From positions 100,998,001 to 101,062,000 of the forward strand of contig OX597815.1 of assembly GCA_951406725.2 (NCBI GenBank): a stretch of DNA of 64,000 nucleotides. Direction: 5' to 3'. Made by a program: the position numbers and the translations under genes. The stretch is from Octopus vulgaris. Taxonomy: Eukaryota. Position 1 is the first letter of the stretch; every line of letters begins with the position of its first letter. The notes beneath the pieces were generated by a model that worked only from the letters and a program-made list of their open reading frames with translations, searched no databases and was not told the DNA's origin. Below are positions 1-60,500 of this stretch, one piece after another.

Positions 1-401
1 TACAACTTCGTACGACATGTACCGCAACCGGCTCTGCATTATCGCCACAACTTCTTGTTATAGTATTTCAATACCCGTGTACAATTGTCTACGAAATGGT
101 ATTTCTTATTCTTGTGTCTATGAACATTCGTCTAACTTCTCATTATGGACACTCATTTTCTTCCTCATTGTTGTTCTTATATGTAGAACACGCATACATC
201 CATGCACATACACATACACTTTGTTCTCATGACGGCCTGTTATTTATTCTGTATACATGACGTGCACGCTGACACGTTAAGCTGTCAAGCATCCTACTCG
301 GTTGTGTGTCTCTCTCTTTTCCCCACTGGCACATTATATGTATTATTTCAGCCTTCTGAACGGAGCGTGCTATTCTACTGCACGTGGCGCGAGAGGCCAC
401 A
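1..401. mobile_element. Partial LTR-like element cut by the window edge, related in inverted orientation to the insert at 2259-3273
   Basis: The reverse complement of 1-280 aligns by eye with ~2405-2710 (e.g. catgtatacagaataa...gccgtcatgaga...catagacaca...gaaatact...ggtacatgtcgtacg). It ends ...ggccaCA just before gag-like coding sequence begins. Confidence 0.65.
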
Positions 402-2258
402 GTTCGAGTGAGGAAGCTAATTGCAAGAATTACGACAAAGTGAAGCAAAAGTTTCAGGAATTCTGTGAACCTAAGAAAAATCTGACGATCGAGAGACATG
501 CATTTTTCATACAATCTCAGAAATTAGGAGAGACAATTGGTGAGTATGTTACAGATTTAAAGAATAAATCTAGAACTTGTGAGTTTGGGACATTGAAGGA
601 TGGGCTCATTAAAGACAGAATCGTCTGTGAAATTCTTAGTGATAACCTCAGAATGCGGTTATTGAGAGAACATGATCTTGATTTGGAAAAAAATGTGCAG
701 ATGTGTAGAGCTACAGAAGTAAGTGTAGACAATTGAAAGTTCTTAATGATGAACAGTCAACCATATCTAAAGAAATCAATGCCATGAATGCCAGTAGGGG
801 TCAAAGAAGAAAGTATGGACCTAAAGGTAGAACAAAAGAATACCTTCAGTGTAGAGAGTGTGGTTACAAACATGCTAAAGACAAGTGTCTAGCTGCAGGA
901 AAAGTTTGTGGCAAATGCAGTGGTAAACATCATTTTGACAGCTTGTGTAAAATTAGAATACCATCTAGGCTTGGCAGACAAGACACTAGAGAGAGAGAAA
1001 ACATTAAAATGTTCACACTGTTGACAATTTGAAGAATTTGAAGAATTATTCATTGGACAGATGACCACTGATAAAGGTGATGAAGACTGGTATGAGACTT
1101 TATTAATCAACAATAAACCAGTGAAAGTCAAACTGGATACAAGCGCACAGTGCAATATTATTTCCAAATCAATGTTCGACAGTTTGAATCTGAAGAATAA
1201 GGAACTGCCAAGATCAAAAGTGAAACTTGTATCATACTTCGAAGAAAAGTGATTCCCGCTTGGAAAGATAGAACTCTCAGTTTCATGTGAAATCAGTGGC
1301 ACTTTGAATGAAATACTTACTATTCCAGGTTGTGGAGGAAAACGATCAAGCATCCTGGGAAGAAAAACCTATGAGAAATTGAAGTTCGTACAGCGAGTTC
1401 ACAACATTCAGAAAGTGAATACAGACATTCTGGGAGAATATCCAGAGCTGTTCCAAGGACTCGGATGCATGTCTGGAGAACACCACATAGAATTAGTGGA
1501 CAAAATCACACCCGTGGTTCACTCGCCGAGAAAAGTACCCGCTGCTTTGATGGACAAGGTGCAAGCAGAATTTAATCGAATGACCAAGCTTGGAGTTGTC
1601 GTCCAAGTGACTCGACCCACAAACTGGGTGAATAGCATGGTGACAGTAGTGAAATAAAGCAAGATTAGGATCTGTATAGACCTAAAAGATCTCAATCGTG
1701 CCATAAAAAGAGAACATTATTCCATGAGAACTGTTGAGGAAATTATGTCACGAATGCCAGGTGCCAAGTTGTTCACCGTTCTTGACGCAGTCTGGATTTT
1801 GGCAGATGCAATTTGATGAAAGCAGTTCCAAATTGTGTACAGTCAGTACCCCGTTCGGTAGATACCGATTCACTCGACTACCTTTCGGAGTGAAGTCGGT
1901 GCCGGAGGTATTTTAGCGAACAATGTCACAGATCCTAGAAAGTTTATCAGGTAGAGAATGTATTGTTGGTAACATTTTGATTTGGGGTACAGATGTCAAA
2001 CAACATGATGAAAGCCTACCTGCCGTTCTGAACAGAACACAGTCAAGTGGCCTGAAACTGAATGCAAGAAATGCAAGTTCAGAATGGCGGAGGTTGCATA
2101 TATAGGGCATCTTCTCACTGACAAGGGATTGAAGCTAAATTTTGAAAAGGTGAAACCTATCGAGAAATGCTGGAGCCTGGAAACAAAACAGATGTGATGA
2201 GATTTCTCTGGGAGAGTTCATGCCAAATCTCTCCAGTGAAACTGAAGTTTTACGAGAG

Positions 2259-5400: not shown

Positions 5401-5603
5401 TACAATGACGAATATTGCATCCATTTTTGGGAGGGGGGGTTAATAATTAACAAGATAGAAGCATTTAAAGTTATATATTTCTAGCCAATGAAATGAGTCC
5501 ATGTCCTCACAAGCGGAAGTCGAAACTGTTTGCTGCTACAGATGCCTTGGCAATAAACAGACTATCATTGAAAATGCAAAGGGAACCGCGAAAATTGAAT
5601 AGT

Positions 5604-6498
5604 CGGATCTTTACCTTTTGACCGGCAGATTTAGAAAATAATTTTTTGTAACTAAACACTTTCAAACTTCGTATGCTGGAAGAATGTGTCATATAAAATA
5701 TCTTTTACTCTTAGCGTTTTTGAGAAAAGTTTATATTTACGGAGTTATTTCGCGTTAAAGTTCTCGTATTTTGGTAATTTCAATCAATCAATGACGTGTA
5801 TTCAGCTGAATAAAATTACTGTCGTTGTTTTTCAACAACAACTATCGGCGGTGTATATTTCGTTTGTCACTGTTATTTATGACATCGTTCGTGCGTTTGT
5901 ACTGGTTTTAGCTTTAAGGTTTTACAGTTAGGGTTAGGGCATTAGGGTTAGGGTTTTAGGGCTAGGGTTTTAGAGTTAAGGTTAGGGATTTAGGGTTAGG
6001 GTTATGGTTTTAGGGTTAGGATTTTAGGGTTAGGATTAGGGTTGGGGTTTTAGGGTTAGAGTTACGGAAAAAAATGAAAAATGAAGAAATTGGAGGGGTA
6101 GGAGTGGAGGTGCAAAAAAGTATTTCTGAAAATAGTAGCTGAAAAACAGGAAAAAAAAAACTAAAAGCAGTAGAAATGCACGAACGATTATGGTGGTGCC
6201 GTGAAGTAAACATGCTTCAGATACACTCGTTTATTCATACAAGCGTAACTGAGATGAAATATGTCATAGATAACAATGACAAACGAAATATATACCCCCG
6301 GAAGTTGTTGTTGACAAACAACAGCAGTAACTTTATTCAGCTCAATAGACGTCATTGATTGGTTGAAATTAGCCTAATACGAGAACTTTAACATGAAATA
6401 ACTTCGTAAATATAAACTTTTCTCAAAAACCCTAAGAGTAAAAGATGTTTAATATGACACATTCTACCAGTATCTTCCAGTCAAAAGGTAAAGATCCG
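5604..6498. mobile_element. Non-autonomous foldback DNA transposon (MITE) with long inverted arms and internal TTAGGG-like repeats
   Basis: Termini cggatctttaccttttgac and gtcaaaaggtaaagatccg. Arms ~5604-5885 and ~6260-6498 are reverse complements. Flanked by the direct repeat AATAGT (or GAATAGTC if the element is one base shorter at each end). Confidence 0.85.
5927..6063 (+). repeat. Degenerate telomere-like (TTAGGG/TTTTAGGG)n array inside the MITE
   Basis: ttagggttagggcattagggttagggttttagggctagggttttag... Confidence 0.9.
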
Positions 6499-7494
6499 AA
6501 TAGTCTTGTTTAAAAAATAATTAATGAAAGCAAGCAAACAAAAAAGGGAGGCTTTTTTTTTTGGGGGGGGGGGATATGTGTGCGTGTGTGCAAGTCTTGG
6601 TTGTGTATGTATGCGTGTATGCTTGTATGTATGGATATGTGAATACATACATATCAACCAAAGAACAACTGATTCTCTACCAAGCTCATGTGAGTACCAC
6701 AATGAAGTGGTTCAGCAACACACTACAACCTCTGGCATATAGATATGTTTCCTATCTCCTCGTTTCCTACCACTCATTACCGTGGCATCATCAGGTCCTG
6801 AGAGCTGGCTGCTTGACCGAGCTCGTGTTACATTCATTGAAACTCATACATCTATGTCCTCTTGTTCCCAGTATTGAGTTCAGGTTCTACCCTATCAGCT
6901 TCTAATTGTTTCTTTCCGAAATGTCGGTCGTCCGGAATTCTCTTCATGCATTTTTCTTACTGCAACCGTCAATTTAAGACAATACCGGTGGAACATTAAC
7001 TGGGTCGGTTTCACTGGTTTTGGAGGGCTTGTCAAAGCCATGAGCACAGCCGTTCTTTCCAGATCAGAATGATAAGCATTTTTAAAACGACTACAGTTTT
7101 GAGAAATTCAATTATGTAATTCATTGAAATTTCCCGGTTTGACTGTTTGCAATTTGTAACTGGCAAGCAGCTTTTCTTTAATGAAACATGTATAAAACAG
7201 TTATTTTAGAAAAGTTACAAAAAAGATGTAAGTTAATTTAGATATGAATTTTAATAATTACACCCGCTTGTTAGTATGTGGGTAACTACGGACTTTTGAA
7301 GAATGGATATTGAAGATAAAACTGGTATCAGTGATTTTGCAATAAAAATTTCACAAATAAAACGTCAAACTAATTATGACGTCATCAAACTGGGGTAGAT
7401 ACAATAGAAACAGCTTTGAACTAATATAGTTCTGAAAATATTAAAAAATAAGCATTTCGGAATTAATCAAGCAAGAAGGTCGTTTGTTTCCACT

Positions 7495-8691
7495 ATGTCA
7501 ACATTAGAAAAACATCCTCTGTATACTCTGTCGACTTCCTGTGAAGACGACAAAACTATCATACACGCAGTTTTTACAGAGTCCATTTTAGGAAAACTGC
7601 AAGATTTTTTAAGAAACGCAACAGAGAGTTGTCTGCATCCCACTATTAAAATATATAACGATGGTACAGGTTTTATTCAAATTCCTGTATGTCCTTTTGA
7701 GACAGATAGCGAACAATATACATTTCATTTTAACTTATATTGTGTACAAGGTAAAGTCAATGGCGTTTTTTATTGTCTCCAGCAAGTGCTGTCAAAAAAT
7801 GAAAACTGTATCAGTTCTTTAGGGTGTATCACTCATAAACTAGTTATGCATGGAAATCGTGATTCGTTTAAAGAATTCAGAAAAAGAATGCACGTGGAAG
7901 AAGCGAAAAAGAAACCTGCGAAAGAGATTTGTCTATCAAAGAATCTTAAATACAAAAAATTTCTCTCGCATTCAGATAATGAGGTTTCGAATTTTAATGC
8001 ATTACTTTGTGATGGCTGGAATAATAAGGCCTTAATATCTGACAATTTATCTGGGGAATCTTCATTTTCATTGAGTAATGAGTTACATATTCCCTCGTAC
8101 GTTAGGAAATCATCATTACGAAAGAGAATTATTCATTTGTTAGCTCTTCGACCATATAACAAGTGTGAACTACTTCGATTATTGAAAAGACATGGCATTT
8201 CCGAAAATGACAAAAAATCCTTTGAATTTAAATTAAGTGAAGTATCTACATGTTACAAAAGACAGCGATTTACTTTGACTATTCCTGCTTGGAAGGAAGT
8301 TGATGCTGCGTGGCCGTATTATAGAGTGGAGCAGCGACAACTTGTGAGAAGACGGCTAAATGCAATGTATCGTGGGACTTCAGATCGTCTAGAAGAGCAT
8401 TTTCATTCAACAGATTTTGAATTTCTGGAAAAGAAACCAACATCAAATAATGGTTTACAGACTCTTAATCTCAACAATAAACAGAAATTTCTACAATCAG
8501 CTTTATGTCCCGAACCTAAACATATAAGAAGATTCAAGGAAAGGTGTCATCCAAATGTTTTAGAGGATGTCGAGAAGCATTACCATAGTATTTCTGATAT
8601 TCAGTCTTCTTTTCACTTACATAAAAATATGAGAATACCTATCTCTGAAACAATAGAAAGTAAACAGAAACGTAAGTATAAAAATCCATAG
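7495..8691 (+). CDS. ELL: Intronless ELL-like RNA polymerase II elongation factor (N-terminal ELL domain plus winged-helix region), probable retrogene; possibly the first coding exon (7495-8671) of an ELL-EAF fusion
   Basis: 398-aa uninterrupted ORF. SLRKRIIHLLALRPYNKCELLRLLKRHG...WKEVDAAWPYY matches the ELL motif LRDRVIHLLALKPYKKPELL..L.KDG...KEVQ.DWPGY. The N-terminal GVFYCLQQ...SLGCITHKL...DSF matches ELL GSFDCIQQ...LGSIQDKI...DSY. Confidence 0.85.
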   Translation: MSTLEKHPLYTLSTSCEDDKTIIHAVFTESILGKLQDFLRNATESCLHPTIKIYNDGTGFIQIPVCPFETDSEQYTFHFNLYCVQGKVNGVFYCLQQVLSKNENCISSLGCITHKLVMHGNRDSFKEFRKRMHVEEAKKKPAKEICLSKNLKYKKFLSHSDNEVSNFNALLCDGWNNKALISDNLSGESSFSLSNELHIPSYVRKSSLRKRIIHLLALRPYNKCELLRLLKRHGISENDKKSFEFKLSEVSTCYKRQRFTLTIPAWKEVDAAWPYYRVEQRQLVRRRLNAMYRGTSDRLEEHFHSTDFEFLEKKPTSNNGLQTLNLNNKQKFLQSALCPEPKHIRRFKERCHPNVLEDVEKHYHSISDIQSSFHLHKNMRIPISETIESKQKRKYKNP

Positions 8692-8710
8692 TTTTAAAAG
8701 CGAAAAAAAT

Positions 8711-8716
8711 AATAAA
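8711..8716 (+). terminator. Candidate polyadenylation signal for a stand-alone ELL-like transcript
   Basis: AATAAA 20 nt after the ORF stop. The region is AT-rich, so this is weak evidence. Confidence 0.3.
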
Positions 8717-8989
8717 TATATAATTATAAGGAATTGAGACATGCAAGAATTATATTCTACGTAGTGTGTTACAGCTAATGAAATGAAGAAAATCCTTGCC
8801 CTTCTGGAGAAAAAGAAATTGAAATTTGTCTTTCTAAATTCCAATGAATTCGATGTCCGCAAAATATTCCTGTTTCCCTCTATTACACCAATCTAGATTA
8901 AGCTGGAGCACTATATGTAACAATGAACATTATTCAATAATTATAATTGATCACTTTTTCTAAAGCTCCTCCTCCTCCAGAGAGAGCGG

Positions 8990-9830
8990 ATTGACAATCA
9001 AACTGGACACAATATGACAATAAAAATAATGATTGTTTAAGCGAAAGCTGAGAGCTTGTTTGATGGTTTGCAAGAAGGGGAAAGTGCAACTTTTGATGCA
9101 AAACCTTGTCTGGCCAGTAAAATCTGGTCTGAAAGGTAAAATAAACGCCTAATTTTGCACACTGACCTGTGAAACTGACAATGCTGAAACAGAACCTGTA
9201 GTAATTATTATTCTGCGGAGCTGGGGAAAATAATTGCTGAAGTAGGCTACATACCAGAACAAATATACAGTATTGATAAAAATAGGATTTTATGAGTCTA
9301 CATGTCTGTTAGAGCTTTTATTTCAAGTGAAGAAAACTTAGCATCGGGTTGTTAAAGTTTCAAAAGTCGTCTTGCGCATCTTGTTGAAGGAAATGCTACT
9401 ATTGATGTGAAATTACTACCCTTACTCCAAAAATACAATGATTTTCGAAGGTTATGCAAAATTTAATCTACCTATGATCTGACATTCAAATAGAAAGTCT
9501 TGAGGGAATATGAGCCTTTTGCGATACTGGTTTACAAACTTCCCTACCCTGCTGTGTCTCGTGTAATGTTTCCCAGAAAGTTTTTCTCGTTTTAGACAAT
9601 ACTTAGCCATTCAGTGAAATTAAAAGTGCTTTCTAATAATGTGAGAGTGGAGTATATTCCCAAGAACACGATTTCTTTGCTCCAATCAATGAACTATAGT
9701 GTGATAGCAAGTTTCACAATATATCATATCAGAATTTCGAAACAATTCATAAAAAAGCAATTGATAGGAACTACAGTCGAGTCACAAAATGAAGTGAATC
9801 TTTCAGCGATATGAATGTTGTTTAATTTGG
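8990..9830 (+). mobile_element. Decayed pogo/Tigger-type DDE transposase remnant
   Basis: Broken frames read GYIPEQIYSIDKIGF, RAFISSEENLASG, RLAHLVEGNA and VEYIPKNTISLLQSMNYSVIASF. Compare Tigger GYLPEQVFNADE and YLPPNTTSLIQPLDQGVI. Confidence 0.75.
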
Positions 9831-10772
9831 AAAATATATGTCCGGTTTATATCAGGGGTTTTATAGATTTTCCACAAACAGAAGGGTTTGTGGGAATATT
9901 CAGCAGTCAGATCTCTATATCAGATGTTACTATAAATTGTAGATTAATTGATTAGTTGCTCAGGTCCCATAGAGGAAGTTTGTCTAGGAAGCTGATTCTT
10001 TTAGAGGAGCAGAATGCTTAGTAAGAGGATATAGAAGCTCCACTGGGTCCTTTTCAGTTGACTTTCAAGAATATAGCTAAAGGGTTGGAATTTACCGGAT
10101 AAGATTTGCAAATCTTTGCCGATGACAATCATAATTGTGAAATGTGAACGTAAAATTACAAAAGGACTATATACTGAGTTCAGTCCCCACACAGGAGCTG
10201 TTCAACGAAATGGCGTACTGTAAATGTTGAACAACTTTGAATGTTTGTCACCCTTGAAATAGTGATGATTATGTTCTGCAGAATAGAAAATAGTGTCCTT
10301 TTTTCTCCAAGTAATTCCCATTGCACCCTACCGACTGACATATTTTGTGATATGTATCCTAATGTAATATTTCTCGAAGAAAAGAAATTCATCGGAAAGC
10401 CTTATAACATCGAAATCAATGGGGAATTGATTTTCGTTTCACGGAATCCCACATTACGGTACAATTACAGAACGCAACGTTCCCGTAAAGCGGGAGGTGC
10501 CTAAGAGTTATTTCTCTTTATTACCGAGCTCTTCAATGTCTATTATTTTCATGTCCCACTTCAGAGTCTGTTGACATTCTCTCTCTACTCATAGTTCCTG
10601 TCCCAATCGAGATATTTTTCGACATCTCTACTATTCACATGCATACAAATGCTTTTCTTTACGCACATCTATCTCTTTCGATAGATAACATTGGTTCTCT
10701 TAGTTCCTGTTTTTGTTGTAAATAACTTTTTCTATTTTAGCGTGGTCCTTCGCAACTCTAGCTTGTCTCGTC

Positions 10773-10857
10773 ATGGCAGAAGACAATAGTGTTGTTGAAC
10801 TTAGACTTGGAGCAAGCTTTGATCCGAATCCTAGAGTTGCTTTCCATTCTGTCAGAT
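10773..10857 (+). CDS. EAF: EAF coding exon 1 (MAEDNSVVELRLGASFDPNPRVAFHSVR)
   Basis: Matches the EAF N-terminus (LRLGESF...SFHTIR-Y). GTAAGT donor at 10858. An upstream acceptor tttctattttag ends at 10740. Confidence 0.9.
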
Positions 10858-11876
10858 GTAAGTACTGAAACTTTCTCTCGTGTATTCGCTTTATAATCAC
10901 CTCTTCATTCGTTTTACTATTTCAAATGTTCCAAGTTCGGTCATGGTCGACTTCGCCTTTCGTCCTTCCGGGAAATCGATAAAGCAAGTAAAGTAATAGC
11001 AGAAGTTTTTCCGAATGTGTTATCGTCCGTATACTCGGTAATAGAGCTTCCATAACATTCGTGGATTTGCACCTACATTATAAATCATTATTTCGAATAT
11101 ATCCAGTGATTAGAATTGGTCTACAATTATGATCGTTGATGAAAGAGAATACAAGGTAACTGAAATATACCAAATATTGTTCTAATACCTTGATATTTCT
11201 CATTTAACAAATAATCATAAGCCAGCTGGTTATCAAATTAATCTCATTCTGTCGTGGACCGTTGTATGATCATTTAATTACTAAATTACACTTACAAATC
11301 TCTGAGATCAGATAGGAAGCCTTATATAGTAACAGTCAGTTTAACCCAAATTAACCATCAATGTTCCAGACGTGACCATCCTGCCTACCCTGTGTACTCT
11401 TATTTAAGACAGCTAGAGATATCAGTCGGCCGCATAGAGATTTTCTCGTATCGTAACTTCTTTTTTTTTTCTTGTGTGTATGTCAAACCTCGCCATCGGG
11501 TACTATTATATATATATTAGTTGAAATACCCTTGATTATATGCATACCCGCATGCTTGCGCATACTTTTGTTGCGTAGTTTCGCTTCTGTTCATGTGCAT
11601 CAAAAATAATCGTGCAAGTTAACTGTACTTGATTGAGAAATTTACACCGCCATATGTTTAGCTAACGATATTGATGTTATGGTGTATGTCCGATGTATTG
11701 TAAAATATCACTGAGTTTGTGTTTTCTTGTTGGTTTGGAAGCGAAATTTATAGGAATAAGTATTCGTTTTAAATTTAAACTTATACAAAGGAAAATGAAA
11801 CAAGTTAGTGCTTCGAATAAGAATTTTGATGAACAAAAGGTAAAATAAATTACTTGCACGCATGTTTGTGTGGGGG

Positions 11877-11914
<38 letters not shown>

Positions 11915-12769
11915 TTATAGGCCTAGGGTCTGAAGAAACGCTGTAAAGCTAAGCGCTTTATGGACGTGAAATTAAAGGTAACCTGGTAGACCGGCCGTAT
12001 CTATCTATCTATCTATCTACCTACCTATCTGTCTGTCTGTCTGTCTGCTCACACGCGCACACAAAAATCGCTGTGTTAGAACTGGAAACCTTGTGGTAAC
12101 AATCAGTTATGGCTAATTAGCTCAAATCGACAATGAAAGAGCAAACCCATCATGAAAGGAGTATCTGTCGTACCCGTCAGTCAGATGTAATTTTCTTTAT
12201 TTAAAGTTGTAATAAGTGGTTTAAGCAAAATTTAGCTCCTATTTCCAACAGATTGCCTGAGTGATGAATTGGCAGAATCATTAGAGCATCCGATAGCTTA
12301 CCTCACCGTGCATTCTGACTGGTTGGCTCTTGATGGCAAAGGCAACACCGTAGCCATGCTGATCTTCATAGCTTTTGCCCCTTGCAAAAGATGTAGCCAG
12401 CTCCTGTTTCTTCACGCTGGTCTTCACCAGGTAGATAGGTCTCACTCTCCATGTGCTAAGAGACCTTGCTTTTTTGTTATTTCGGAACTGAAAGAACATC
12501 ATACCAGATGCCTTGCATTATTTATTCTGGCTCTTTGCATTTTGTGATCATATCCTGTATTGGCTTACATGGGTAGTAAACTGTTTCCGTCTCTCAGTTT
12601 AAATCCATTAGTCCTGTAGTGGATTCCATTGAACAAGCTTTTGGGCCAGGTTACTGTTCCCCAATCTCGGACACCCTGTGAAGGTTCATAGTCACTGTTT
12701 TCATGTTTGACTAGAAAAAAAAGTGTAGCGCAGAACTGTAGCAAAGAAATGAATCGTCAACTGATAAAT

Positions 12770-13045
12770 CATCATCACCGTTTAACATCCGCTTTCCATG
12801 CTAGCATGGGTTGGACGATTTGACTGAGGACTGGTGAACCAGATGGCTGCACCAGGCTCCAATCTGATCTGGTGAAGCTATCAACTGCTTGTAGTTTTTC
12901 TTCCTGGAATGTGGCAGAAGTTGTTCTCTATCTTCCCAGTTAGCCTTCCTTTGATATTGCTACACCTCTTATGTGTCCATAGCTTACACTGGGTACATCT
13001 TATAGAGTTTCTACCTATGCTTTTTCTACAGATCGAGCAGGGTCA
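12770..13045 (-). mobile_element. RTE LINE 3' tail plus a fragment of the PHD region
   Basis: catcatcaccgtttaacatccgctttccatgctagc tail, followed by sequence matching the PCSICRK...WTHKRC region. Confidence 0.8.
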
Positions 13046-14018
13046 CTTTTTATTGAGTTGTGCCTACAACCAACTGATTAATGTTAGGGAGTAGTTGGAG
13101 TTGTAATTCATAAAAATATCGTGTTTAGGAAAGTGATTGTATGAGATCGTTTACGAGTGCTTGTGTAGTTCATTGCTGTGTAAATTATCAAATTAATGAA
13201 TGATATCAATAAAAATATTTTGGCAATAAGAAATTTAAACAAACAAATGTAGGACATTCCTAGCAAATGATCAACTGCAGTCATTTACAGCAAATCAATG
13301 TATTTATATTAAACTTAAAATTTCCATCATAATTTATGTAAAGTCTTTTAAGACATGTTCCCAATATTAGCTTAATAATGAAAAAGTTATTTTAGTAAAT
13401 CTTTCCAAGTTCTTGATTATGTTAAAAATTTACTGAAATACATAGATGTGTATTTCATTAGGAATATAGCCATGAAACGGTTAAAAAAGCTTACTAATTT
13501 AAACTTGTTAGCTTTTTATTGCCATTGTGTTCTTAAATAATACATTATGAACTTTATATTTAACTTTTGAATATTTGTACTATAATATGTTAATGTATAT
13601 ATACTATAATGTTAGTATAATATAATACACCCACTAATATTGGTCCTTGTATGGTTTTGTGTTTGAGAAGTTTGCTTCACGACATATTTCTTCTCAGTTT
13701 AGTCCTGCTGTTCAAGCCCATGGACTGGACTGTGACCATTTTTTGCTCAGTTTAACATTGTCAACAGGCCCACAGGTGCCTTTTGCTGAGCCCCTCTATT
13801 GCAAGCATTCAGCTAGGTGAAGACAAAATAAGATGTAGTTTCTTCCTCCCTTATCCTTACCTGTTCCCAAGAAGTGTGGGGACTCCAAAATGTTAGAGGT
13901 ACCGAAAAAGCCATACCTGCTTATTCAGTGAAGATAATATTTCTTAAAACATGACTAATATAAATGAAATCGTCTATCAGCTTGTCAGGTAATTTTAATT
14001 TTCTATTGATTATCTTAG

Positions 14019-14113
14019 ATGACTTTAAACCAGCATCGGTTGATGTTACAAAAGAAGCTGCTTTAGAAGTTGGTGAGAAAAACCAAGTTACAATAACTGT
14101 GCCACATATTGAG
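14019..14113 (+). CDS. EAF: EAF exon 2 (Y-DFKPASVDVTKEAALEVGEKNQVTITVPHIE)
   Basis: Diagnostic EAF motif YDFKPAS. AG/GTAAG boundaries with consistent phase. Confidence 0.95.
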
Positions 14114-14302
14114 GTAAGTTAGGATTATTGTATTGCAAAAAATCAGGCTAACTACCACACTGCATTCTGTCTTTAATTAAATTTAATTCCAGGAATTGTC
14201 TTTCTTGCTTTTCTTAATCAGAATTAATAACTCAGCTAATAATTTTTTCTATTCAGTACAGTCGTAGTTGTAATTGCCTCACTCATCATCATCATGTATA
14301 TA

Positions 14303-14814
14303 CCGTAAATCCTCGAGTATAGTCCGCCCTTGAGTATAATACGCAGGGGATTTTTATGGGGCTGTACCTTTGAAAAATCTAAACATTGTGTATAATACGC
14401 ACCCCTTCTCTAACTTGAGTCAAGGAGGTCTATATAACGTCCTTGGTTTGTAAAAATGTATACTGTAGTGTCCTTTATTATTATTGTATATATAACATAA
14501 TGCTAACGTGTAGCTTTTTTGTGTATTTTGTTGGCAGAAAATAAAGAAATAACAGTTATAACGTTTAATAAATGTTGCTTACTGCAAGTTATGGATGATT
14601 CTTTTATGACTTCATTGCTTTCAGGCTTAGCTGAAGGTATTTTTGCGCCCAACATCACAAAATCTGTCTGCATAAACATTGCTGAACAGCAAATAGAGAC
14701 TCGGACTTTGTTTAGGAAATATTTTTCATTTTTAACCTCGTATATAGTACGCACTAAGGATTTTGACCTTTATATTTTGGGAAAAAAATGCAGATTATAC
14801 TCAAGGATTTACGG
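14303..14814. mobile_element. Tc1/mariner-superfamily (Tc2-like) MITE
   Basis: TIRs ccgtaaatcctcgagtata and tatactcaaggatttacgg, with TA on both flanks. Confidence 0.85.
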
Positions 14815-20134: not shown

Positions 20135-20271
20135 AGTTCAGGTACGACACACACTGTGTATAAAGGAAATAAAAGGACATGTCCAAAAGAGTGTGTCCTT
20201 ATTATTGATAATGCCTCCGGATCAGTTACACTGGAAAAACTCTCCAACACCATACAAGTGAAGAAAACTAG
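20135..20271 (+). CDS. EAF: EAF exon 3 ([46 protein letters not shown])
   Basis: EAF core (KGNKR...KECVLII...LEKL...IQVKKTR). AG/GTAAG boundaries. Confidence 0.95.
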
Positions 20272-22344: not shown

Positions 22345-22508
22345 AGCTGAAGGTTCTAGTCGTCTTTCTATGAGGCCACTCACTCCTGTTGACAGTAGTA
22401 AAATGAAAACATCACCTCCGAAAAGTGGCAAAATGTCTCAGCATAGTCCATCTTCCTTTAAAGAGTGTTCTCCAGCTTTGACACCAGTTGAACCTGATAA
22501 CAACAGAG
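22345..22508 (+). CDS. EAF: EAF exon 4 (AEGSSRLSMRPLTP...PDNNR)
   Basis: Continues the conserved KKTR-AEGSS. Polypyrimidine/AG acceptor and GTAAG donor; phase fits. Confidence 0.9.
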
Positions 22509-23814: not shown

Positions 23815-25011
23815 TGTGGGTTTTTTGTACTTCTTTTATTTTTCAAAATTAAGATAAACAGTTCATTTTTAATCTAAAATATACTCTCCTGCATTTTCTA
23901 CAATGCTCTTCCATCTATCTAGTAGACTGGCAAGGCTCCTCTTCCAAAATTTACTTGTCCGTGACAAAAAATACTCCTCGAGTACTGTACTGACCTCATC
24001 TACAGAATTCATATTTTTTCTGTCCAAATGATTTTGAAGAATGCAGAATAAATGATAATCAGATGGGTCACTGTCCATCGATTATGGTGGATGGGGCATC
24101 ATTTCTCATTTAAATTGATCCAGCTTTGGAATATCATCCTTGATGTATGTGGCCAAACATTATCCTGATGGAAGAACACCTTTCATCTTGAAACCAAAGA
24201 TGGTCGTTTTTCTTTTAGTGCTGTCTTGAATGACTGGTTGAATGGCCAAATCCAAGCTTCTCTGCTAGTTCTTCAATGGTTATGATGGGATTTTGTTCCA
24301 CCAGGGTTTGCAGGACATCCTCGTCGAGCTCTAAAGATCTTCCAGGATGAGGCTTGTCTTCTAGGCTGTAGTTTTTGGTTCAGAATTTTGGAATCATTGT
24401 TGACACTGGCTTATGCTTATTGTCTGATCTCCATCTCCATCATCATCATCATCATCATCGTTTAACGTCCGCTTTCCATACTAGCATGGGTTGGACGATT
24501 TGACTGAGGACTGGCGAACCAGATGGCTGCACCAGGCTCCAATCTCGATCTGGCAGAGTTTCTACAGCTGGATGCCCTTCTTAATGCCAACCACTCCGAA
24601 AGTGTAATGGGTGCTTTTCGTGCCACCAGCATGAGGGCCAGTCAGGCGGTACTGGCAACAGCCATGCTCAAATGTGTTTTTTACGTGCCACCTGCACAGG
24701 AGTCAGTCCAGCAGCACTGGCAATGACCTTGTTACTGCATTAATATTCCTTGCACTTTCTGTTGCATTGTTGCCTTTATTGAATCCATAAAGCAAAATAT
24801 GCCGAATATGCTCCTTTATTTCTTCTATTATAGCTTTGAAAAAGTAACTGTTAGAATCAAACTGCACTCTTCAAAACTTGTACTAAGAATAAGGACAAGG
24901 TAAAATTACTACCTGCTTTTATAGCAAGTTGATGCAGGTAGCTTATCCCATCACCCTCTATCTTTTAGCTTGTGCAATTGAATAAACCACATTATTTATG
25001 GGAAAACCCAA
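23815..25011 (-). mobile_element. Decayed mariner transposon interrupted by an RTE tail (~24440-24730)
   Basis: PSDYHLF...LQNHL...RWKSIVENAGEYI is a mariner transposase C-terminus. A TIR-like ttgggttttcccataaataatgtgg (minus strand) ends at TA near 25011. Confidence 0.85.
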
Positions 25012-27504: not shown

Positions 27505-29770
27505 TCATCATCATCATCATCATTTAACGTCAGCTTCCCATGCTGGCATAGGTTGGATGGTTTGACTGAAGACTGGCATGGTTTCTACAGCTGGATGCCT
27601 TTCCTAATACCAACCACTCCAAGAGTGTAGTGGGTGCTTTTTATGTGCCACCAGCACGAGGGCCAGTCAAGTGGTTCTGGCATCGACCACGCCCGAATGG
27701 TGTTTTTACATGCCACCAGCATAGGAGCCATTCAAGTGGCACTGGCAAAGACCACGCTTAAATGGTGCTTTTTATGTGCCATTGGCATGGGACCAGTCAG
27801 GTGGCATTGTCAACGACCATGCTGAAATGATGCTTTTTACGTGCCACTGGCACGGTACTGGCATCAGCCACAACAATGATTTCACTTGACTCAGCAGGTC
27901 TTCTCAAGCACAGTTTGTTGCTCAATGATTGAAAGGTACTCTTAAATGGGCCGGTTATGCTATACTGACATAGGCCATGGTTACAGTCTCATTTGGCTTG
28001 CCAGGTCTTCTCAAGCACAGCATATCTCCAAAGGTCTTGGTTGCTTGTCATTGCCTCCATGAGGCCCAACGTTTGAAGGTCGTGCTTCACCACCTCATCC
28101 CAGGGTTTCCTGGGTCTACTGCTTCCACAGGTTTCCTCCACTGTAAGGGCATGACGCTTTTTCACACAGTTGTCCTTATCCATATGCAATACATGGCCAT
28201 ACCAGCACAGTCGTCTCTCTTGCACACCACATTTGATGCTTCTTATATCCAACTTTTCTCTTAAGGTGCTTACACCCTGTCATGTATGTACACTGACACA
28301 TCCAGCTGAGAATACTAGCTTCATTTCTTGCAAGCTTACACATGTCCTCAGCAGTCACAGCCCATGTTTCACTGCCATGTAGCATGGCTGTTTGCACACC
28401 TGTGTCATACAGTCTACCTTTTACTTTGAGTGAGAGGCCCTTTGTTACCTGCAGAGGTAGGAGCTCTCTGAACTTTGCCCAGGCTATTCTTATTCTAGCA
28501 GCTATGCTCTCAGAGCATTCACCCCAGCTACTGACTTGGTCACCTAGGTAATGGAAGCTATCAACTACTTCTAGTTTTACCTCCTGACATGTGACGGAAG
28601 CTGTTTTCTGTATATTTTCAATGTTTATTGTCCCTGTGCATCTGCCACACACAAAAACTATCTTCCCAGTTAGCCTTCCTTTGATATTGCTGCACTTCTT
28701 ATGTGTCCATAGCTTACACTGGGTACATCTTATGGAGTTTCTACCTACGCCTTTTCTACAGATTGAGCAGGGCCATCTACCTGAAGGGATTTGTGATTTG
28801 TCTGCTAGATTCACTCTGAGGTCCTTTGATTCTAGACCTTGTTTCCACACCTGAAACTTCTCCTCTAGTTCTAATAGTGACTCAGCTATTAGAGCAAGGT
28901 CATCAGTATAGAGAAGCTCTCAGGGGCATCCTGTCTTGAATTCCTTTGTTATTGCCTGGAGGACTATGATGAATAAGGGGGTGTTGAGGACTGATCCTTG
29001 GTAGATCCCTACCCAGAATTCTTCACTATACTCATTGCCAGCCCTCTCCTTACTGACAGCATCCTTGTACATGGCTTGTACAGCTTTTACTAACCACTCA
29101 TCTATCCCTAGTTTTCACATTGACCATCAGATAAGGAATCGGGGTCCCTGTCAAAAGCTTTCTCCATGTCAACGAAAGCCAAGTACAGAGGTTTATCTTT
29201 GGCTAAGTATTTCTCCTGCAGCTGACTTACCGGAAATATAGCATCAATGGTGCTTCTCCTTGGCACAAACCCAAACTGCATTTTGTCTAAACTAACTCTC
29301 TCCCTAATTAGTTGGGCTATGACCCTCTCTGTGACTTTCATTACCTGATCCAACTACTTGATACCTCTGTAATTATTTATATCTAATGCATCACATTTAC
29401 CTTTGTAGCAGTTGACTATGGTGCTGCTATACCAGTCATTGGGTATGACTCCTTCATGTATCACTTGATTGACTATATGGATGACTAGATTATAGCCGAC
29501 ACTGCCAAATATTTTAAGCATTTTTGCAGTGATTCCTGATGGGCCAGGGGCTTTCCCTGTCTTCAAACCCTTAATTGCTTTATCTACCAAGGTACTGTCA
29601 ATTTGGATAGCTAGTCCATTTGTTGGGTCAACATTTAGCAGACTCTCTTTCTCTTTGTTTAGCAACCTTTCATAGTATAGTGGTATCTCCAAGTCTCTCT
29701 CTTCGCAGCCTCATTAAATGCAAGTGAGCCATCATACATGCGGACATATTTCTCTTCTATGACATCATGA
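27505..29770 (-). mobile_element. 5'-truncated RTE LINE (RT, PHD finger, 3' UTR and (GAT)n tail), degenerate
   Basis: GKAPGPSGITA, NNYRGIK, QFGFVPRRSTIDAIF, AFVDMEKAFDR, CSIC...CTQC..WTHKKC...CGRC, RLCWYGHVLHM, RPRKPWDEVV. Confidence 0.93.
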
Positions 29771-30170: not shown

Positions 30171-30323
30171 ATAATGGTAACAGTTCTCTAAATGTGTGTG
30201 CTCCAGTAGCGTTGACAAATAACATGTCAGAAAGCAGCAGTAGTAGTTCTTCATCAAGTGGCAGTGATGTGTCTAGTGATTCAGAATCAGACAACTCTGA
30301 TTCAGAGGGAGGACCTAACAAAG
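30171..30323 (+). CDS. EAF: EAF exon 5, Ser/Asp/Glu-rich region (MSESSSSSSSSSGSDVSSDSESDNSDSE)
   Basis: Acidic serine-rich segment typical of the EAF activation domain. ttccag and gtaaac boundaries, phase 1-1. Confidence 0.88.
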
Positions 30324-31092: not shown

Positions 31093-31140
31093 ATACTCCT
31101 GCTCCATGTGATGTTCCATCGAAAGACCTTAGTACGTTAA
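31093..31140 (+). CDS. EAF: EAF exon 6 (DTPAPCDVPSKDLSTL)
   Basis: tttcttcag acceptor and GTAAGT donor. Phase 1-1 links exons 5 and 7. Confidence 0.75.
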   Translation: MLLLHVMFHRKTLVR

Positions 31141-33875: not shown

Positions 33876-33919
33876 GTGAAGACTTACATTTGACTGAATC
33901 AGGCAGTGACAGTGAATGA
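33876..33919 (+). CDS. EAF: EAF terminal coding exon (SEDLHLTESGSDSE*)
   Basis: Matches the conserved EAF C-terminus (DLQLSESGSDSD). Long polypyrimidine tract and AG acceptor. Confidence 0.92.
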
Positions 33920-36469: not shown

Positions 36470-39400
36470 CAGTTTGTGAATCTTGGCACACTGAAAGGTA
36501 GGTCTAGTGAGATTGTAGAGATGCTTGAAAGGAGATGGGTTGATGTATGCTGCATACAAGAGGTAAGATGGAGAGGAGCTTCAGCTAGTCCTCACATGCA
36601 AGGCACATTGGTATAAAGTCTTCTGGCAAGGTAACATGGATGGTGTAGGAGGTGTAGACATACTCCTTGTAGAGAAATGGGTGGATAAAATCATAGAGGT
36701 TGTTAGGGTATGCGATAGTATTTAAGCTCAGGCTAGTCCTGCAGAACAGCACAGCTACAATTATCTCCGCCTATGCCCCACATGCGGAGCTACCAAATGA
36801 TCTGAAGGACCACTTCTATGATACCCTTCCTCAGGCTACCTCATCTTTGTGGCTGGAGATTTTAATGGGCATGTTGGGCGGAAATCTGGTATCTTTACTG
36901 GTGTACATGGGGGCCATGGTATTGGTTCCCAGAACGATGAGGGAACTAGGCTACTGGAGTTCTGTGATACATGTAACCTTTTAATCTGCAACACTAAGTT
37001 CAGGAAGCCAGACAGCCACTTGATAACCTATCAGTCAGGGGACTCAGCTTGCCAGATTGATTTCATCCTCACCAGACAGCGGGACGCAGGGTTGCTCTTA
37101 AATACAAAGACCCTCCCTGGTGAGGAATGCACCCACCAGCATAGACTAGTCATTAGTGACTTTCGATTCGAGACCAGAAGGATGCCTAAAAGCAGAACAA
37201 TCCAGAAGAGAAGGATTTGGAAGCTAAAGAACCCTTCACGTGATCAGAGATTTAGGGACATCCTCATCAAGAAATTTGATGAGAGGGAGGAGGAACTGCA
37301 GTCCTCAGACATAGAAGGTAGCTGGAAATTCTTATGGGACAGCTTACTGAGTGCCACAGACCAAGTCTGTGGATGGTGCAAAGTCCCTTCCAGACCTAGA
37401 GTAACGTGGTGGGGTAATAATATGGTAGACAAAGCCATCAGAGCAAAGAAACAGGCTTGGAAGGGTGGGGGTAGCAGGGAACTGTACCAGATAGCCAAAA
37501 AGGAGGCTGGGTGACAGGTATACATAGCCAAGGGCGAAGCAGAAAAGAAGGAGTTTGCCATTGTCCAGCGACGTGAGGACCAAGGAACTGAAGTATTCTG
37601 TATTGCAAGACAGCGTGAGAGAAAATTGTGATGTCACATGAGAAAAATGTGTCTGCATGGATGATGGTGCACTTGCTTTTAATGATTTGGAAAAGAATGA
37701 GACTCGGAGGAGCCATTATGAAAGACTGTTGAATGTGGAGAATGAGTGGGAGGAGGAGAGCCTGCCAAATGTTGGTCCAGTATAGGGACCAGCTATCCGA
37801 AAAAACAGCACCCTGGTAGATAAAGCAATTAAAGATATGAAGCCAGGAAAAGCCTCTGGCCCATCAAGAATCACCACTGAGATGCTTAAAACATCTGGTG
37901 GTGTGGGCTTTGGCCTAGTCACCTGTATTGTAAACCAGGTTGTTCATGATGGAGTCATATCCAATGACTGGCATAGCAGCACCATAGTCAACTGCTACAA
38001 AGGTAAAAGTGATGCTTTAGACAGAAATAACTACAGGGGTATCTAATTGCTGGATCAGGTGATGAAGGTCATAGCCCAACTAATAAGGGAAAGAGTTCAC
38101 TTAGATTAGATGCAGTTCGGTTTTGTGCCAGGTAGAAGCACCACTGATGCTATATTCCTGGTACGGCAACTGCAGGAGAAATACCTAGCCAAAGATAAAC
38201 CCCTATATTTAGCTTTTGTGGATTTGAAGAAAACCTTTGACAGGGTCCCCTGATCCCTTATCTGGTTGGCGATGCAGAAACTGGGGATTGACGAATGGTT
38301 AATAAGAGCTGTACAGGCCCTTTACAGAGATGCTGTCAGTAGGGTTAGGATTGGAAATGAGTATAGTGAAGAATTCCAGGTAGAAGTAGGGGTCCACAAA
38401 GGATCAGCCCTCAGCCCCCTCCTATTCATCATAGTCCTCCAGGCAATAACAGAGGAATTCAAGACAGGTTACCCCTGGGAACTTCACTATGCTGATGATC
38501 TGGCCTTCATAGAATCACTACCAGAACTAGAGAAGAAACTTAAAGTTTGGAAGCAAGGTTTAGAATTGAAGGGCCTTAGAGTCAATGTTGCAAAAACCAA
38601 AGTTCTCGTAAGTAGGAAGGCGAACACATCACACATCCCTTCAGGTAGGTGACCCTGCTCGATCTGTAGAAAAGGTGTAGGTAGAAATTCCATAAGATGT
38701 TCTCGGCGTCAGCTATGGACACATAAGATGTGCAGCAACATCAAAGGAAGATTAACCTGGAAGATAGCTTTCACATGCAGCGGATGCATAAGAAGCATTG
38801 GATGTGGAGTGCAAGAGAGACGTTTGTATTGGTATGGTCATGTACTGCAGATGGATGAGGAGAGCTGTGTGAAGAAGTGCCACTCCCAAACAGTGGAAGG
38901 AATCCGAGGTAGAGGGAGACCCAGGAAGACATGGGATGAGGTGGTGAAGCATGACCTTTGTACGTTGGGCCTCACAGAGGTAATCACAAAAGACTGAGAC
39001 CTCTGGAGGTATGCTGTGACTGAGAAGACTCGGCAAATAAAGTGAGTCCACAGCTGTAACCTTCACCAGTGTCTCATAATCAGCCCACTCAAAGGTCTCT
39101 TGGGTTGTAGGGCGACATGCCATGCTTGAGGAGACCTATTGAGTCAAGTACATTAACATCGGCGCTTGCGGTGGTTTGGCCATGCATGTAGGCGTCTGGT
39201 GGGTGAACTGAGCCATGATGTCCTTCTCCCAACTCCACTTCCCAACTGGCGGAAATGCGCGGGCGGTCAGCTGAAGACCTGGACTACAACGATCAAGGAG
39301 GACCTGTCCATGCTCATGGGTCCGCAGGTGGTCGGCCTGCGCCGATGGAACCGTGACTGGCTCGCTATCTCCAGTGAACTGGCGCAGGACCATCGTGCGT

Positions 39401-57579: not shown

Positions 57580-60500
57580 TAGAGCTGATGACCTTGCTCT
57601 AATTGCTGAGTCACTATCAGAACTAGAGGAAAAGTTTCAGGTGTGGAAGCAAGGATTAGAATTGAAGGGCCTTAGAGTCAACCTAGCTAAAACCAAAGTC
57701 TTAATAAGTAGGAAGGCAGAAAAACCACAAATCCTTTCAGGTAGATGGCTCTGCTCGATCTGTAGAAAAGGCGTAGGTAGAAACTCCATAAGATGTACCT
57801 AATGTAAGCTATGGACGCATAAGAGGTGCAGCAATATCAAAGGAAGGCTAACTGGGAAGATAGTTTATGTATGTGGCAAATGCTCAGGTGCTATAAACAC
57901 TGAAAATGTGCAGAGAACAGCTTCTCTCACATTTATAAACAAAACAGACACACATAAACATTAATGTTTATCACAGAAGCTATCAACTACAAGTAGTTGA
58001 TAGCTTATGTTACCTAGGGGACCAAGTCAGTAGCCGGGGTGGATGCTCTGAAAGTGTAGCTGCTAGAGTAAGAATAGCTGGGGCAAAGTTCAGAGAACTC
58101 CTACCTCTGCTGGTAACAAAGGGCCTCTGTCTCAGAGTAAAAGGTAGATGGTATGATGCATGTGTACGAACAGCCATGCTACATGGCAGTGAAACATGGG
58201 CCGTGACTACTGAGGACATGCATAAGCTTGCAAGGAATGAAGCCAGTATGCTCCACTGGATGTGTAATGTCAATGTACATATACAACAGAATGTAAGTGC
58301 CCTGAGAGAAAAGTTAGACATAAGAAGTATCAGATGTGGTGTGCAAGAGAGATGACTGCGCTGGTATGGTCATGTGTTGCAAATGAATGAGGAGAGCTGT
58401 GTGAAAAAGTGTCACACTCTAGCAGTTGAGGGAACCTGTGGAAGAGGTAGACCCAGGAAGACCTGGGATGAGGTGGTGAAGCACGACCTTCGAACATTGG
58501 GCCTTACTGAGGCAATGAATAGTGACCGAGACCTTTGGAGATATGCTGTGCTTGAGAAGACCTGATAAGCCAAGTGAAACCATAACCCATGGCCTATGCT
58601 AGTGGGTGTAATCAGCCCACTTATGAGTACCCCTCATTCATTGGGCAATAAACTTTGTTTGTGAAGGCCTGTTGAGGCAAGTGAAATCAAAATCAAAATC
58701 GCTGATGTGGCCAATGACAATACCACCTGATTGGCACTTGTGCCATCATCATCATCATCATCGTTTAACGTCCGTTCTCCATGCTAGCATGGGTTGGACG
58801 GTATGACCGGGGATCTGGGAAGCCAGAAGGCTGCACCAGGCTCCAGTTTTATCTGGCAATGTTTCTACAGCTGGATGCCCTTCCTAACGCCAACCACTCC
58901 ATGAGTGTAGTGGGTGCTTTTTACGTGCCACCCGCACAGGTGCCAGGCGAGGCTGGCCACGGTCGGATTGGTGCTTTTTACATGTCACCGGCACGGAAGC
59001 CAGTCGAGGCGGCGCTGGCATCGGCCACGATTCGGATAGTGCTTTTTACGTACCACCAGTCCAGGGGTCCTGGCATCTGCCGGGTACCAGTCATAAGATT
59101 GGTTCAATTTCGATTCCGATTTCGATTTCGATTTCACTTGCCCCAACAGGTCTTCGCAAGCAAAGGGGGTTGGTATGGGTGCCTGTCGTCGGATGAGGTT
59201 CGATATTGACTTCGCTTGCCTCAACAGGTGTGTCCAAGGGAGGAAAGGCATGCATAAGTGGGCTGGGCTCACTTGTCCTGCCTGGTCTTCTCACGTACAG
59301 CATATTTCCAAAGGTCTCGGTCGCTGGTCATTTCTTCAGTGAGGCCTAAAGTTCGAAGGTCGTGCTTTACCACCTCGTCCCAGGTTTTCCTGGGTCTACC
59401 TCTTCCACGGGTTCCCTCAACTGCTAGGGATTGGCACTTTTTCACACACCTATCTTCATCCATTCTCGCCATCGTCTTTCTCGCAATCGTCTTTCTTGCA
59501 TACCACAACTGATGCTTCTTAGGTACAACATTTCTCTCAAGGTACTAACACTCTGTCGAGTATGTACATTGACATTACACATCCATCGGAGCATACTGGC
59601 TTCATTCCTCGCGAGCTTACGCATGTCCTCAGCAGTCACGGCCCATGTTTCACTGCCATGTAGCATGGCTGTTCGTACACATGCATCATACAGTCTGCCT
59701 TTTACTCTGAGCGAGAGGCCTTTAGTCACCAGCAGAGGTAAGAGCTCCCTAAACTTTGCCCATGCTATTCTTATTCTTGCAGTTACACTTTCAACGCACC
59801 CACCCCCACTACTGACTTGGTCACCTAGATAACGGAAGCTATGAACTACTTCTAGTTTTTCCCTCTGGAAAGTGACGGAAGTTGTTTTCTGCAGATTTTC
59901 AGAGGTTAATGCTCCTGAGCATCTGCCACATACAAAAACTATCTTCCCAGTTAGCCTTCCTTTAACATTGCTGCACCTCTTATGTGTCCATAGCTTACAC
60001 TGGGTACATCTTATAGAGTTTCTACCTACACCTTTTCTACAGATCGAGCAGGGTCATCTTCCTGAAGACATTTGTGGATTGTCTACCTTCCTACTTATTA
60101 GTACTTTGGTTTTAGCTAGGTTGACTCTAAGGCCCCTCGATTCTAAACCCTCCTTCCACACCTGGAACTTCTCCTCCAGTTCTGATAGTGACTCAGCAAT
60201 TAGAGCAAGGTCGTCAGCTTAGAGGAGCTCCCAGGAGCAACCTGTCTTGAATTCCTCCGTAATTGCTTGGAGGACTATGATAAATAGGAGGGGGGCTGAG
60301 TACTGAACCCTGGTGGACCCCAACCTCTACTTTGAATTCTTCTGTGTACATGTTGCCAACCCTAACCTTACTTACGGCATCCCTGTACATGGCTTGCACA
60401 GCCCTCACCAGCCATTCATCTATCCCTAGTTTCCTCATTGACCACCAGATAAGGGATCGGAGGACCCTGTCAAAGGCTTTCTCCATGTCAACGAAAGCCA

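What the first reader, a model, noticed from the sequence alone, without database searches (positions are those of the whole stretch)
7495..8691. Intronless, divergent ELL paralog lying 2 kb upstream of EAF on the same strand
Seen: 398 open codons with no intron in a neighbourhood where every transposon ORF is broken, which suggests selection. Established: animal ELL genes are normally multi-exon and end in an occludin-homology domain; I know of no general ELL-EAF linkage. Inference: this is a retrogene. Even without fusion, two complex partners side by side suggests a co-regulated or read-through module. A protein keeping the EAF-binding end but lacking the C-terminal domain could act as a specialised or dominant-negative subunit.
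Basis: partly seen in the sequence, partly recalled or inferred. Interest (0 to 1): 0.75.

Follow-up and report, generated by a model that had tools for sequence, protein, structure and literature searches.

The report
Octopus ELL retrocopy fused to EAF
In octopuses, an intron-free copy of the transcription elongation gene ELL sits just upstream of the gene for ELL's binding partner EAF and is spliced onto it in frame, which would make one protein out of two subunits that are separate in other animals and likely frees the pair from its usual control complex.

Summary
The 398-codon ORF (7495-8691) is an intronless, fast-evolving ELL copy (Pfam ELL, E 8e-43). A multi-exon parent lies 61 Mb away on the same contig, and the copy groups with octopod ELL in a tree. 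It is not merely EAF's neighbour: a GTAAGT donor 20 bases before its stop splices in frame to the first coding exon of the only EAF locus found. This gives a 644-aa ELL(N-domain + winged helix)-EAF fusion without the occludin domain. The joint 8671-10741 appears in assembled contigs of 4 of 4 runs laid (3 with long flanks), and automated annotations of three Octopus species hold the junction. Argonauta has the copy, apparently next to EAF; fusion there is not shown. Both folded domains are conserved relative to the linker (87% and 68% against 40%). No other ELL-EAF fusion turned up in 162 ELL and 164 EAF proteins, nor in five literature searches. Best reading: a pre-assembled ELL-EAF module that cannot join the super elongation complex. 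Translation, intramolecular pairing, Pol II activity and tissue pattern are untested, and the N-domain motifs are eroded.

The parts
7495..8671 (+). Coding part of the first exon of the fusion: intronless ELL retrocopy (N-terminal dimerisation-type domain about aa 1-145, winged helix aa 203-291, low-confidence tail to aa 392)
   Evidence: Pfam ELL 10-288; model matches 7OKX chain M, 2DOA, 2E5N; contigs in 4 of 4 runs end exactly at 8671
7000..7494 (+). Transcribed leader contiguous with the retrocopy; true 5' end not determined
   Evidence: Covered from 7000 (edge of the stretch laid) in X14 and X4, from 7404 in X3 and 7461 in X1
8672..10740 (+). 2069-base GT-AG intron joining the retrocopy to EAF; donor GTAAGT; holds the ORF's own stop (8689-8691), an AATAAA at 8711 and a decayed DDE transposase piece
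   Evidence: Joint 8671->10741 GT..AG; borders; motifs
10176..10740 (+). Candidate native EAF 5' region, or unspliced pre-mRNA
   Evidence: One contig 10176-10770 in run X14 runs unspliced through the acceptor; none listed for the other 3 runs, whose table was cut
10741..10857 (+). EAF exon with the ancestral start codon at 10773; the 32 bases before it are read in frame as the linker PWSFATLACLV
   Evidence: other cephalopod-type EAF proteins begin at this Met
14019..14113 (+). EAF exon
   Evidence: (joint 10857->14019 in 4 of 4 runs)
20135..20271 (+). EAF exon (end of the EAF domain)
   Evidence: loose ends of X14, X1 and X4 continue into it
22345..22508 (+). EAF exon
30171..30323 (+). EAF exon (Ser/acidic region)
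31093..31140 (+). EAF exon
33876..33919 (+). Last coding EAF exon with stop codon

Best explanation
An intronless, retroposed copy of ELL is spliced in frame onto octopus EAF, and the RNA would be translated into a 644-aa protein that likely acts as a pre-assembled ELL-EAF elongation module on RNA polymerase II, outside the super elongation complex (SEC). Shown: the gene structure, the splice joint, the open frame, the separate parent gene, the missing occludin domain. Inferred: an ELL mRNA copy inserted upstream of, or in the 5' region of, EAF before Octopus and Argonauta split, lost its 3' third and gained a donor site that uses the acceptor in front of EAF's start codon. Predicted: the ELL N-domain pairs with the EAF domain of the same chain (about 270 residues apart, a winged helix and two flexible stretches between them) to form the dimer that binds the Pol II lobe. 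The covalent tether would replace the ELL C-terminal contact that human ELL needs to hold EAF1. Without the occludin domain it could not bind the AFF scaffold, so it would act without P-TEFb delivery and compete with ordinary ELL-EAF for the same Pol II site. EAF's Ser/acidic tail is kept whole.
For: Joint 8671->10741 (GT..AG) in 4 of 4 runs laid, from 4 studies and 3 organism labels; 117 letters on the short side in X1, X3, X4 and 30 in X14; in X1, X3, X4 one contig holds the retrocopy and the next two EAF exons. Eight exons with GT-AG borders give a 644-aa frame: identical to O. vulgaris CAI9717901.1 over its 513 aa (the target of the border search) and 4 residues off O. sinensis XP_029655880.2; O. 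bimaculoides XP_014781336.1 has the same junction peptide. Pfam finds ELL and EAF domains in the fusion and occludin only in the parents. Octopus-Argonauta identity is 77/89 in the winged helix and 99/145 in the N-domain against 23/57 in the linker (Fisher p 6e-9 for helix against linker). 0 of 500 neutral simulations kept the frame open to that divergence. The model has two confident domains and its best PDB match is ELL2 in the Pol II-ELL2-EAF1 structure (E 6e-9). The unspliced tail differs in length between relatives (398 and 427 aa) while the K-R-K-Y-K reading across the donor is kept. PMC5290273 (abstract): the occludin domain binds AFF4. PMC9638944 (passages): deleting it abolished human ELL binding to EAF1 and SEC. 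PMC10716050 (passages): the ELL2-EAF1 dimerisation domains bind the Pol II lobe.
Against: No protein-level evidence exists here. The N-domain is eroded: of 31 columns conserved in 88 ordinary ELLs the copy keeps 18 and the parent 26; the V-K-L-T-D motif reads A-V-F-T-E; in the helix and linker after it the copy keeps 3 of 7, the parent 7 of 7. pN/pS against run X1 is 0.67 and not significantly below 1 (7 silent, 18 replacement; p 0.24; 25 of 28 differences usable). The copy evolves much faster than its parent (68% against 94% N-domain identity to Argonauta). The runs were picked for holding the retrocopy, are contigs only, and none is on record as RNA; contigs show the joint, not a full-length molecule or its level. 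Argonauta's two parts are annotated as separate proteins.
Confidence: 0.55

Rival explanations
1. The fusion protein is made but does not stimulate elongation. The eroded ELL N-domain would cap or fail to pair with the EAF domain, making an inhibitor or decoy, or the strongly basic winged helix would tether EAF's acidic tail to nucleic acid as a new kind of regulator.
For: Loss of conserved N-domain and linker residues. The winged helix is the best-kept part (87% to Argonauta) and its net charge is +13 to +15 in 4 of 4 retrocopies against +2 in the parent and at most +10 in 88 ordinary ELLs (mean 6.3, sd 2.1). PMC9638944 (passages) reports that EAF1-bound ELL outside SEC goes with lowered transcription.
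Against: The N-domain still models with high confidence and matches ELL2 of 7OKX at TM 0.72 by target length, and keeps 68% identity to Argonauta against 40% in the linker. The charge shift could partly reflect A-rich codon bias (not tested).
Confidence: 0.25
2. One reading: selection acts on a stand-alone 398-aa ELL-like protein ending at the AATAAA at 8711, EAF is made from its own promoter, and the spliced chimera is a by-product of read-through.
For: The ORF has its own stop and a poly(A) signal 20 bases on. A contig in X14 runs unspliced from 10176 through the acceptor, as a native EAF 5' end would. Argonauta annotation lists the two as separate proteins. One unnamed protein (P0013) reads through the donor.
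Against: In 4 of 4 runs the retrocopy contig leaves the genome exactly at 8671 for the acceptor. The joint is in frame, and gene models of three species use it. The unspliced tail is not conserved in length. The exact 398-aa protein and the exact 241-aa EAF-only protein are not in the protein collection, which is weak evidence.
Confidence: 0.14
3. The retrocopy is a decaying passenger: transcribed because it lies in EAF's upstream region, spliced by chance, with no function, or the joint is an assembly or processed-copy artefact.
For: pN/pS 0.67 is not significantly below 1 in the closest comparison. No DNA control run was laid.
Against: Open frame in 5 of 5 retrocopy proteins compared, down to 67% identity; 0 of 500 neutral simulations survive; conservation follows the domains. 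Genome searches find one retrocopy and one EAF locus and no processed fusion copy. Both joints seen fall on GT-AG borders.
Confidence: 0.06

Closest known systems
ELL-EAF heterodimer of the super elongation complex (human ELL2-EAF1, PDB 7OKX)
   Same: ELL N-domain, ELL winged helix and EAF domain are all present and fold-matched.
   Different: Both halves lie in one reading frame; no occludin domain; conserved N-domain motifs are eroded; an ordinary ELL gene persists elsewhere.
Chimeric retrogenes such as jingwei and TRIMCyp (PMC5470649, passages)
   Same: A retrocopy joined by splicing to exons of a gene at the landing site, with faster protein evolution afterwards.
   Different: In those cases the passages read name no prior binding between the two parts. 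Here the host gene encodes the parent protein's own binding partner, and it is the only EAF locus found.
Mammalian ELL3
   Same: A divergent ELL paralog, called testis-specific in the abstract start of PMC3386972 (search listing).
   Different: From recall, ELL3 is multi-exon, keeps a C-terminal occludin-like domain and is not fused to EAF; not checked here. Tissue pattern of the octopus copy is unknown.
TFIIF RAP30/RAP74-type dimerisation modules
   Same: The model's next-best fold matches after ELL are chains of Pol II and Pol III initiation and elongation complexes, which I take from recall to be TFIIF-type subunits; TFIIF clashes with ELL2-EAF1 on Pol II (bioRxiv 2023.12.22.572998, one passage).
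   Different: Sequence identity 10-14%; a fold resemblance only.

Membership tests
ELL family | ELL N-terminal and winged-helix region (PF10390) | tested here: met
   E 8.2e-43, residues 10-288; fold match to 7OKX_M, 2DOA, 2E5N
ELL family | C-terminal occludin homology domain (PF07303) | tested here: not met
   Absent from ORF and fusion, present in parents; no remnant in 6000-11000
ELL family | Binds Pol II and suppresses pausing | not testable with these tools
   Needs biochemistry; conserved N-domain columns kept 18 of 31
EAF family | EAF domain (PF09816) and Ser/acidic C-terminal tail | tested here: met
   Residues 412-510 of the 644-aa O. sinensis fusion, E 1.6e-23; 106 of 107 identical to Argonauta EAF; tail composition
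Super elongation complex subunit | AFF-binding surface on the ELL occludin domain | tested here: not met
   Domain absent; role from PMC5290273 abstract. Contacts through the EAF part were not tested.
ELL-EAF dimer | ELL N-domain pairs with the EAF domain | not tested
Retrogene | Intron-bearing parent elsewhere in the genome | tested here: met
   11 exon-sized pieces at G000:C2:162.227-162.290 Mb
Retrogene | Copy is continuous across the parent's intron positions | tested here: met
   One match to parent residues 1-389, E 1e-45, across breaks near parent codons 42, 95, 137, 247, 270, 324 and 360
Retrogene | Poly(A) remnant, target-site duplication or flanking LTRs | not tested
   Not searched for; unlikely to survive at 32% protein identity to the parent
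Retrogene | Transcribed and under constraint | tested here: met
   Spliced contigs; domain-biased conservation and frame survival; pN/pS alone inconclusive
Chimeric retrogene | Spliced in frame to exons of a neighbouring gene | tested here: met
Chimeric retrogene | Chimeric protein is made | not testable with these tools
   Needs proteomics or ribosome profiling

The most novel reading that the evidence does not exclude
Octopods have rebuilt a core Pol II elongation factor: the ELL-EAF fusion is the main product of their only EAF gene in at least some tissues, a natural single-chain ELL-EAF that works without the SEC scaffold, born when a retrocopy landed beside and fused to the gene of its own binding partner.
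Probability: 0.35. Interest if true: 0.88.

Novelty: new variant of a known kind. Interest (0 to 1): 0.72.

Why it matters
ELL and EAF are separate subunits from fission yeast to mammals (PMC6212713, introduction). A natural fusion lacking the SEC-binding domain is a ready-made test of what ELL-EAF does on Pol II apart from P-TEFb delivery. It is also an unusual evolutionary event: a retrocopy captured by the gene of its parent's binding partner, in a 2.8-Gb genome, and kept in several octopus species. Because only one EAF locus was found, the choice between the fused and the plain form could control how much EAF is left for ordinary ELL and SEC.

Tried and rejected
No RNA holder listed: none of the 24 runs is on record as RNA; the RNA nature of the 4 laid is inferred from exact GT-AG intron skipping. 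No contig covered 8757-9007 in the 4 runs; contigs cannot show absence of a stand-alone form. Depth bookkeeping for X14 would fit a short native EAF leader of about 40 bases before the acceptor, but contig depth cannot show levels or starts, so I do not count it. A fold of the whole fusion was sent on an alignment that proved wrong (ELL rows fell on the EAF domain); it had not finished and is not used. An exact exon chain for the parent was not found (0 solutions); parent residues 43-57 were not placed by exact match, so 'at least 11 coding exons'. A genome search with the occludin family gave no answer. No squid or cuttlefish ortholog of the retrocopy was recognised among the 150 listed of 284 representatives: after the two retrocopy clusters identity falls to the level of ordinary ELLs, and only 10 of these were looked up by name; absence in decapodiforms is not shown. 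The Pfam searches rang in 0 of 14 control genomes, which tells little for a eukaryotic family. Earlier scan findings: none.

Full report
Observation. Pfam ELL covers residues 10-288 (E 8.2e-43), and the only solved-structure sequence matches (3) are human ELL and ELL2. The window lies at G000:C2:100,998,001-101,062,000 in a 2.8-Gb genome; its proteins match named Octopus records at 96-100%.

It is a retrocopy. The ordinary ELL (578 aa, ELL plus occludin domains) maps to 11 exon-sized pieces at C2:162.227-162.290 Mb. The window ORF matches parent residues 1-389 in one piece at 32% identity (E 1e-45), across at least six intron positions in the well-aligned part. No remnant of the occludin domain lies in 6000-11000. 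In a tree of 22 ELL proteins the 5 copies form one clade (100/100) that joins the 3 octopod ELLs (99/94), on a long branch whose placing deserves the usual caution. The Pfam ELL search of the genome finds only these two loci.

It is fused to EAF. The first homolog search returned an O. vulgaris protein carrying both ELL and EAF domains. In the window a GTAAGT donor at 8672, 20 bases before the end of the ORF, joins an acceptor at 10741, 32 bases before EAF's start codon at 10773. Eight exons with GT-AG borders give a 644-aa frame; the border search was aimed at CAI9717901.1 and reproduces its 513 aa exactly, and the whole frame differs at 4 residues from O. sinensis XP_029655880.2. O. bimaculoides XP_014781336.1 carries the same junction but stops after the first EAF exon. 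These are automated gene models; none of the names given calls it a fusion. Only one EAF locus was found in the genome (a sixth match at E 0.6 covers the low-complexity tail only).

Independent sequence support. I laid 4 of the 24 listed runs, chosen among those holding the retrocopy, on 7000-14500. All 4 show the joints 8671->10741 and 10857->14019, both GT..AG. X1, X3 and X4 have 117 letters on the short side and a single contig through the retrocopy and the next two EAF exons; X14 has 30 letters, one short of the tool's bar for bridging. The runs come from 4 studies and 3 organism labels and differ from the window by 3 to 49 letters in the retrocopy piece, so at least some are relatives. 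Limits: contigs, not reads; RNA status inferred from intron skipping; no DNA control. X14 also has a contig running unspliced from 10176 through the acceptor, which may be a native EAF 5' end or pre-mRNA.

Spread. With home-made profiles, 4 of 162 ELL-family proteins carried EAF sequence, all Octopus models of this gene, and 0 of 164 EAF proteins carried ELL. These sets are the listed part of larger hit lists (150 of 284, 120 of 1073), and one search was limited to 132-422 aa, covering 354-1127 aa, gave 48 hits with only the Octopus records spanning both parts.

Selection. Identity to the Argonauta copy is 99/145 in the N-domain, 23/57 in the linker, 77/89 in the winged helix and 14/34 after it (Fisher p 6e-9 helix against linker). 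In a crude neutral simulation with substitutions only, 0 of 500 frames stayed open to 67% identity. Against this, pN/pS to run X1 is 0.67 (7 silent, 18 replacement, p 0.24), and the parent is far more conserved (132/140 and 83/86 in the same domains). None of the 25 usable differences falls in the winged helix. So the copy is constrained by domain but evolving fast.

Anatomy. The model of the 398-aa ORF has two confident domains (block pLDDT mostly 75-95 over aa 11-140 and 91-98 over aa 201-290) and low-confidence stretches elsewhere; best fold match is ELL2 in 7OKX. Of columns conserved in 88 ordinary ELLs, the copy keeps 18 of 31 in the N-domain (parent 26), 3 of 7 in the following helix and linker (parent 7) and 25 of 32 in the winged helix (parent 29). 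From recall, the paper behind 7OKX found that linker needed for stimulation; I did not read it. The winged helix has a net charge of +13 to +15 in 4 of 4 copies, above all 88 ordinary ELLs (maximum +10, parent +2). The EAF half is intact (106 of 107 domain residues identical to Argonauta).

Mechanism. ELL activity rises when bound by EAF (PMC6212713, introduction). The dimerisation domains bind the Pol II lobe (PMC10716050, passages). The occludin domain binds AFF4 (PMC5290273, abstract), and its deletion abolished human ELL binding to both EAF1 and SEC (PMC9638944, passages). A truncated retrocopy alone would therefore hold EAF poorly; fusion would supply the partner in cis and leave the product outside SEC. 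I put this at 0.55, an inhibitor or nucleic-acid-tethered EAF at 0.25, a stand-alone protein with incidental read-through at 0.14, and no function at 0.06. The chimeric RNA itself I hold above 0.9.

Literature. Five searches of the held library found no description: octopus/ELL/EAF/retrogene, octopus/chimeric gene/retrocopy/cephalopod, the phrase 'ELL-EAF fusion' (0 papers), retrogene fusion with an interacting partner and octopus/SEC/ELL/cephalopod; I judged these from listings and abstract starts. In PMC9068888 the one 'ELL' hit is an author's initials, and the single supplementary file held (3,805 characters) had none; its larger tables were not seen and could list the gene. Subscription journals are not covered. 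Chimeric retrogenes as a class are well known (PMC5470649 and PMC5131818, passages).

Verdict. A real, spliced, in-frame ELL-EAF chimeric retrogene of Octopus, present in automated annotations but not found described. New variant of a known kind; interest 0.72.

Noticed in passing
window 9596-9811 (+): Decayed DDE_1 (pogo/Tigger-type) transposase piece inside the fusion intron, Pfam E 4e-4, under the curated cut-off.
   Followed up: partly
window about 5925-6065: Degenerate TTAGGG-like (telomere-type) tandem array about 1.4 kb upstream of the retrocopy start.
   Followed up: no
window 5500-6500 and 10250-12000: Two stretches with CpG observed/expected mostly near or above 1, candidates for the fusion and native EAF promoters; the retrocopy itself is also near 1 in places, so this is weak.
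   Followed up: partly
window 281-1657 (+): Broken frames that look like gag, zinc knuckle and pol pieces of an LTR retrotransposon (label from recall, not tested).
   Followed up: no
window 28176-29710, 36822-38997, 57939-60855: Several broken LINE-type endonuclease and reverse transcriptase pieces, some inside EAF introns; an O. bimaculoides gene model (P0012) has spliced such a piece into the ELL-EAF model and is named after it.
   Followed up: partly
G000:C2:162,227,049-162,290,449: Parent ELL has a first intron of about 54 kb; residues 43-57 were not placed by exact match and may lie partly in a further small exon.
   Followed up: no
window 24027-24140 (+): Matches an extra in-frame segment of the P0012 model (82%), a possible alternative or mis-called EAF exon.
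   Followed up: no
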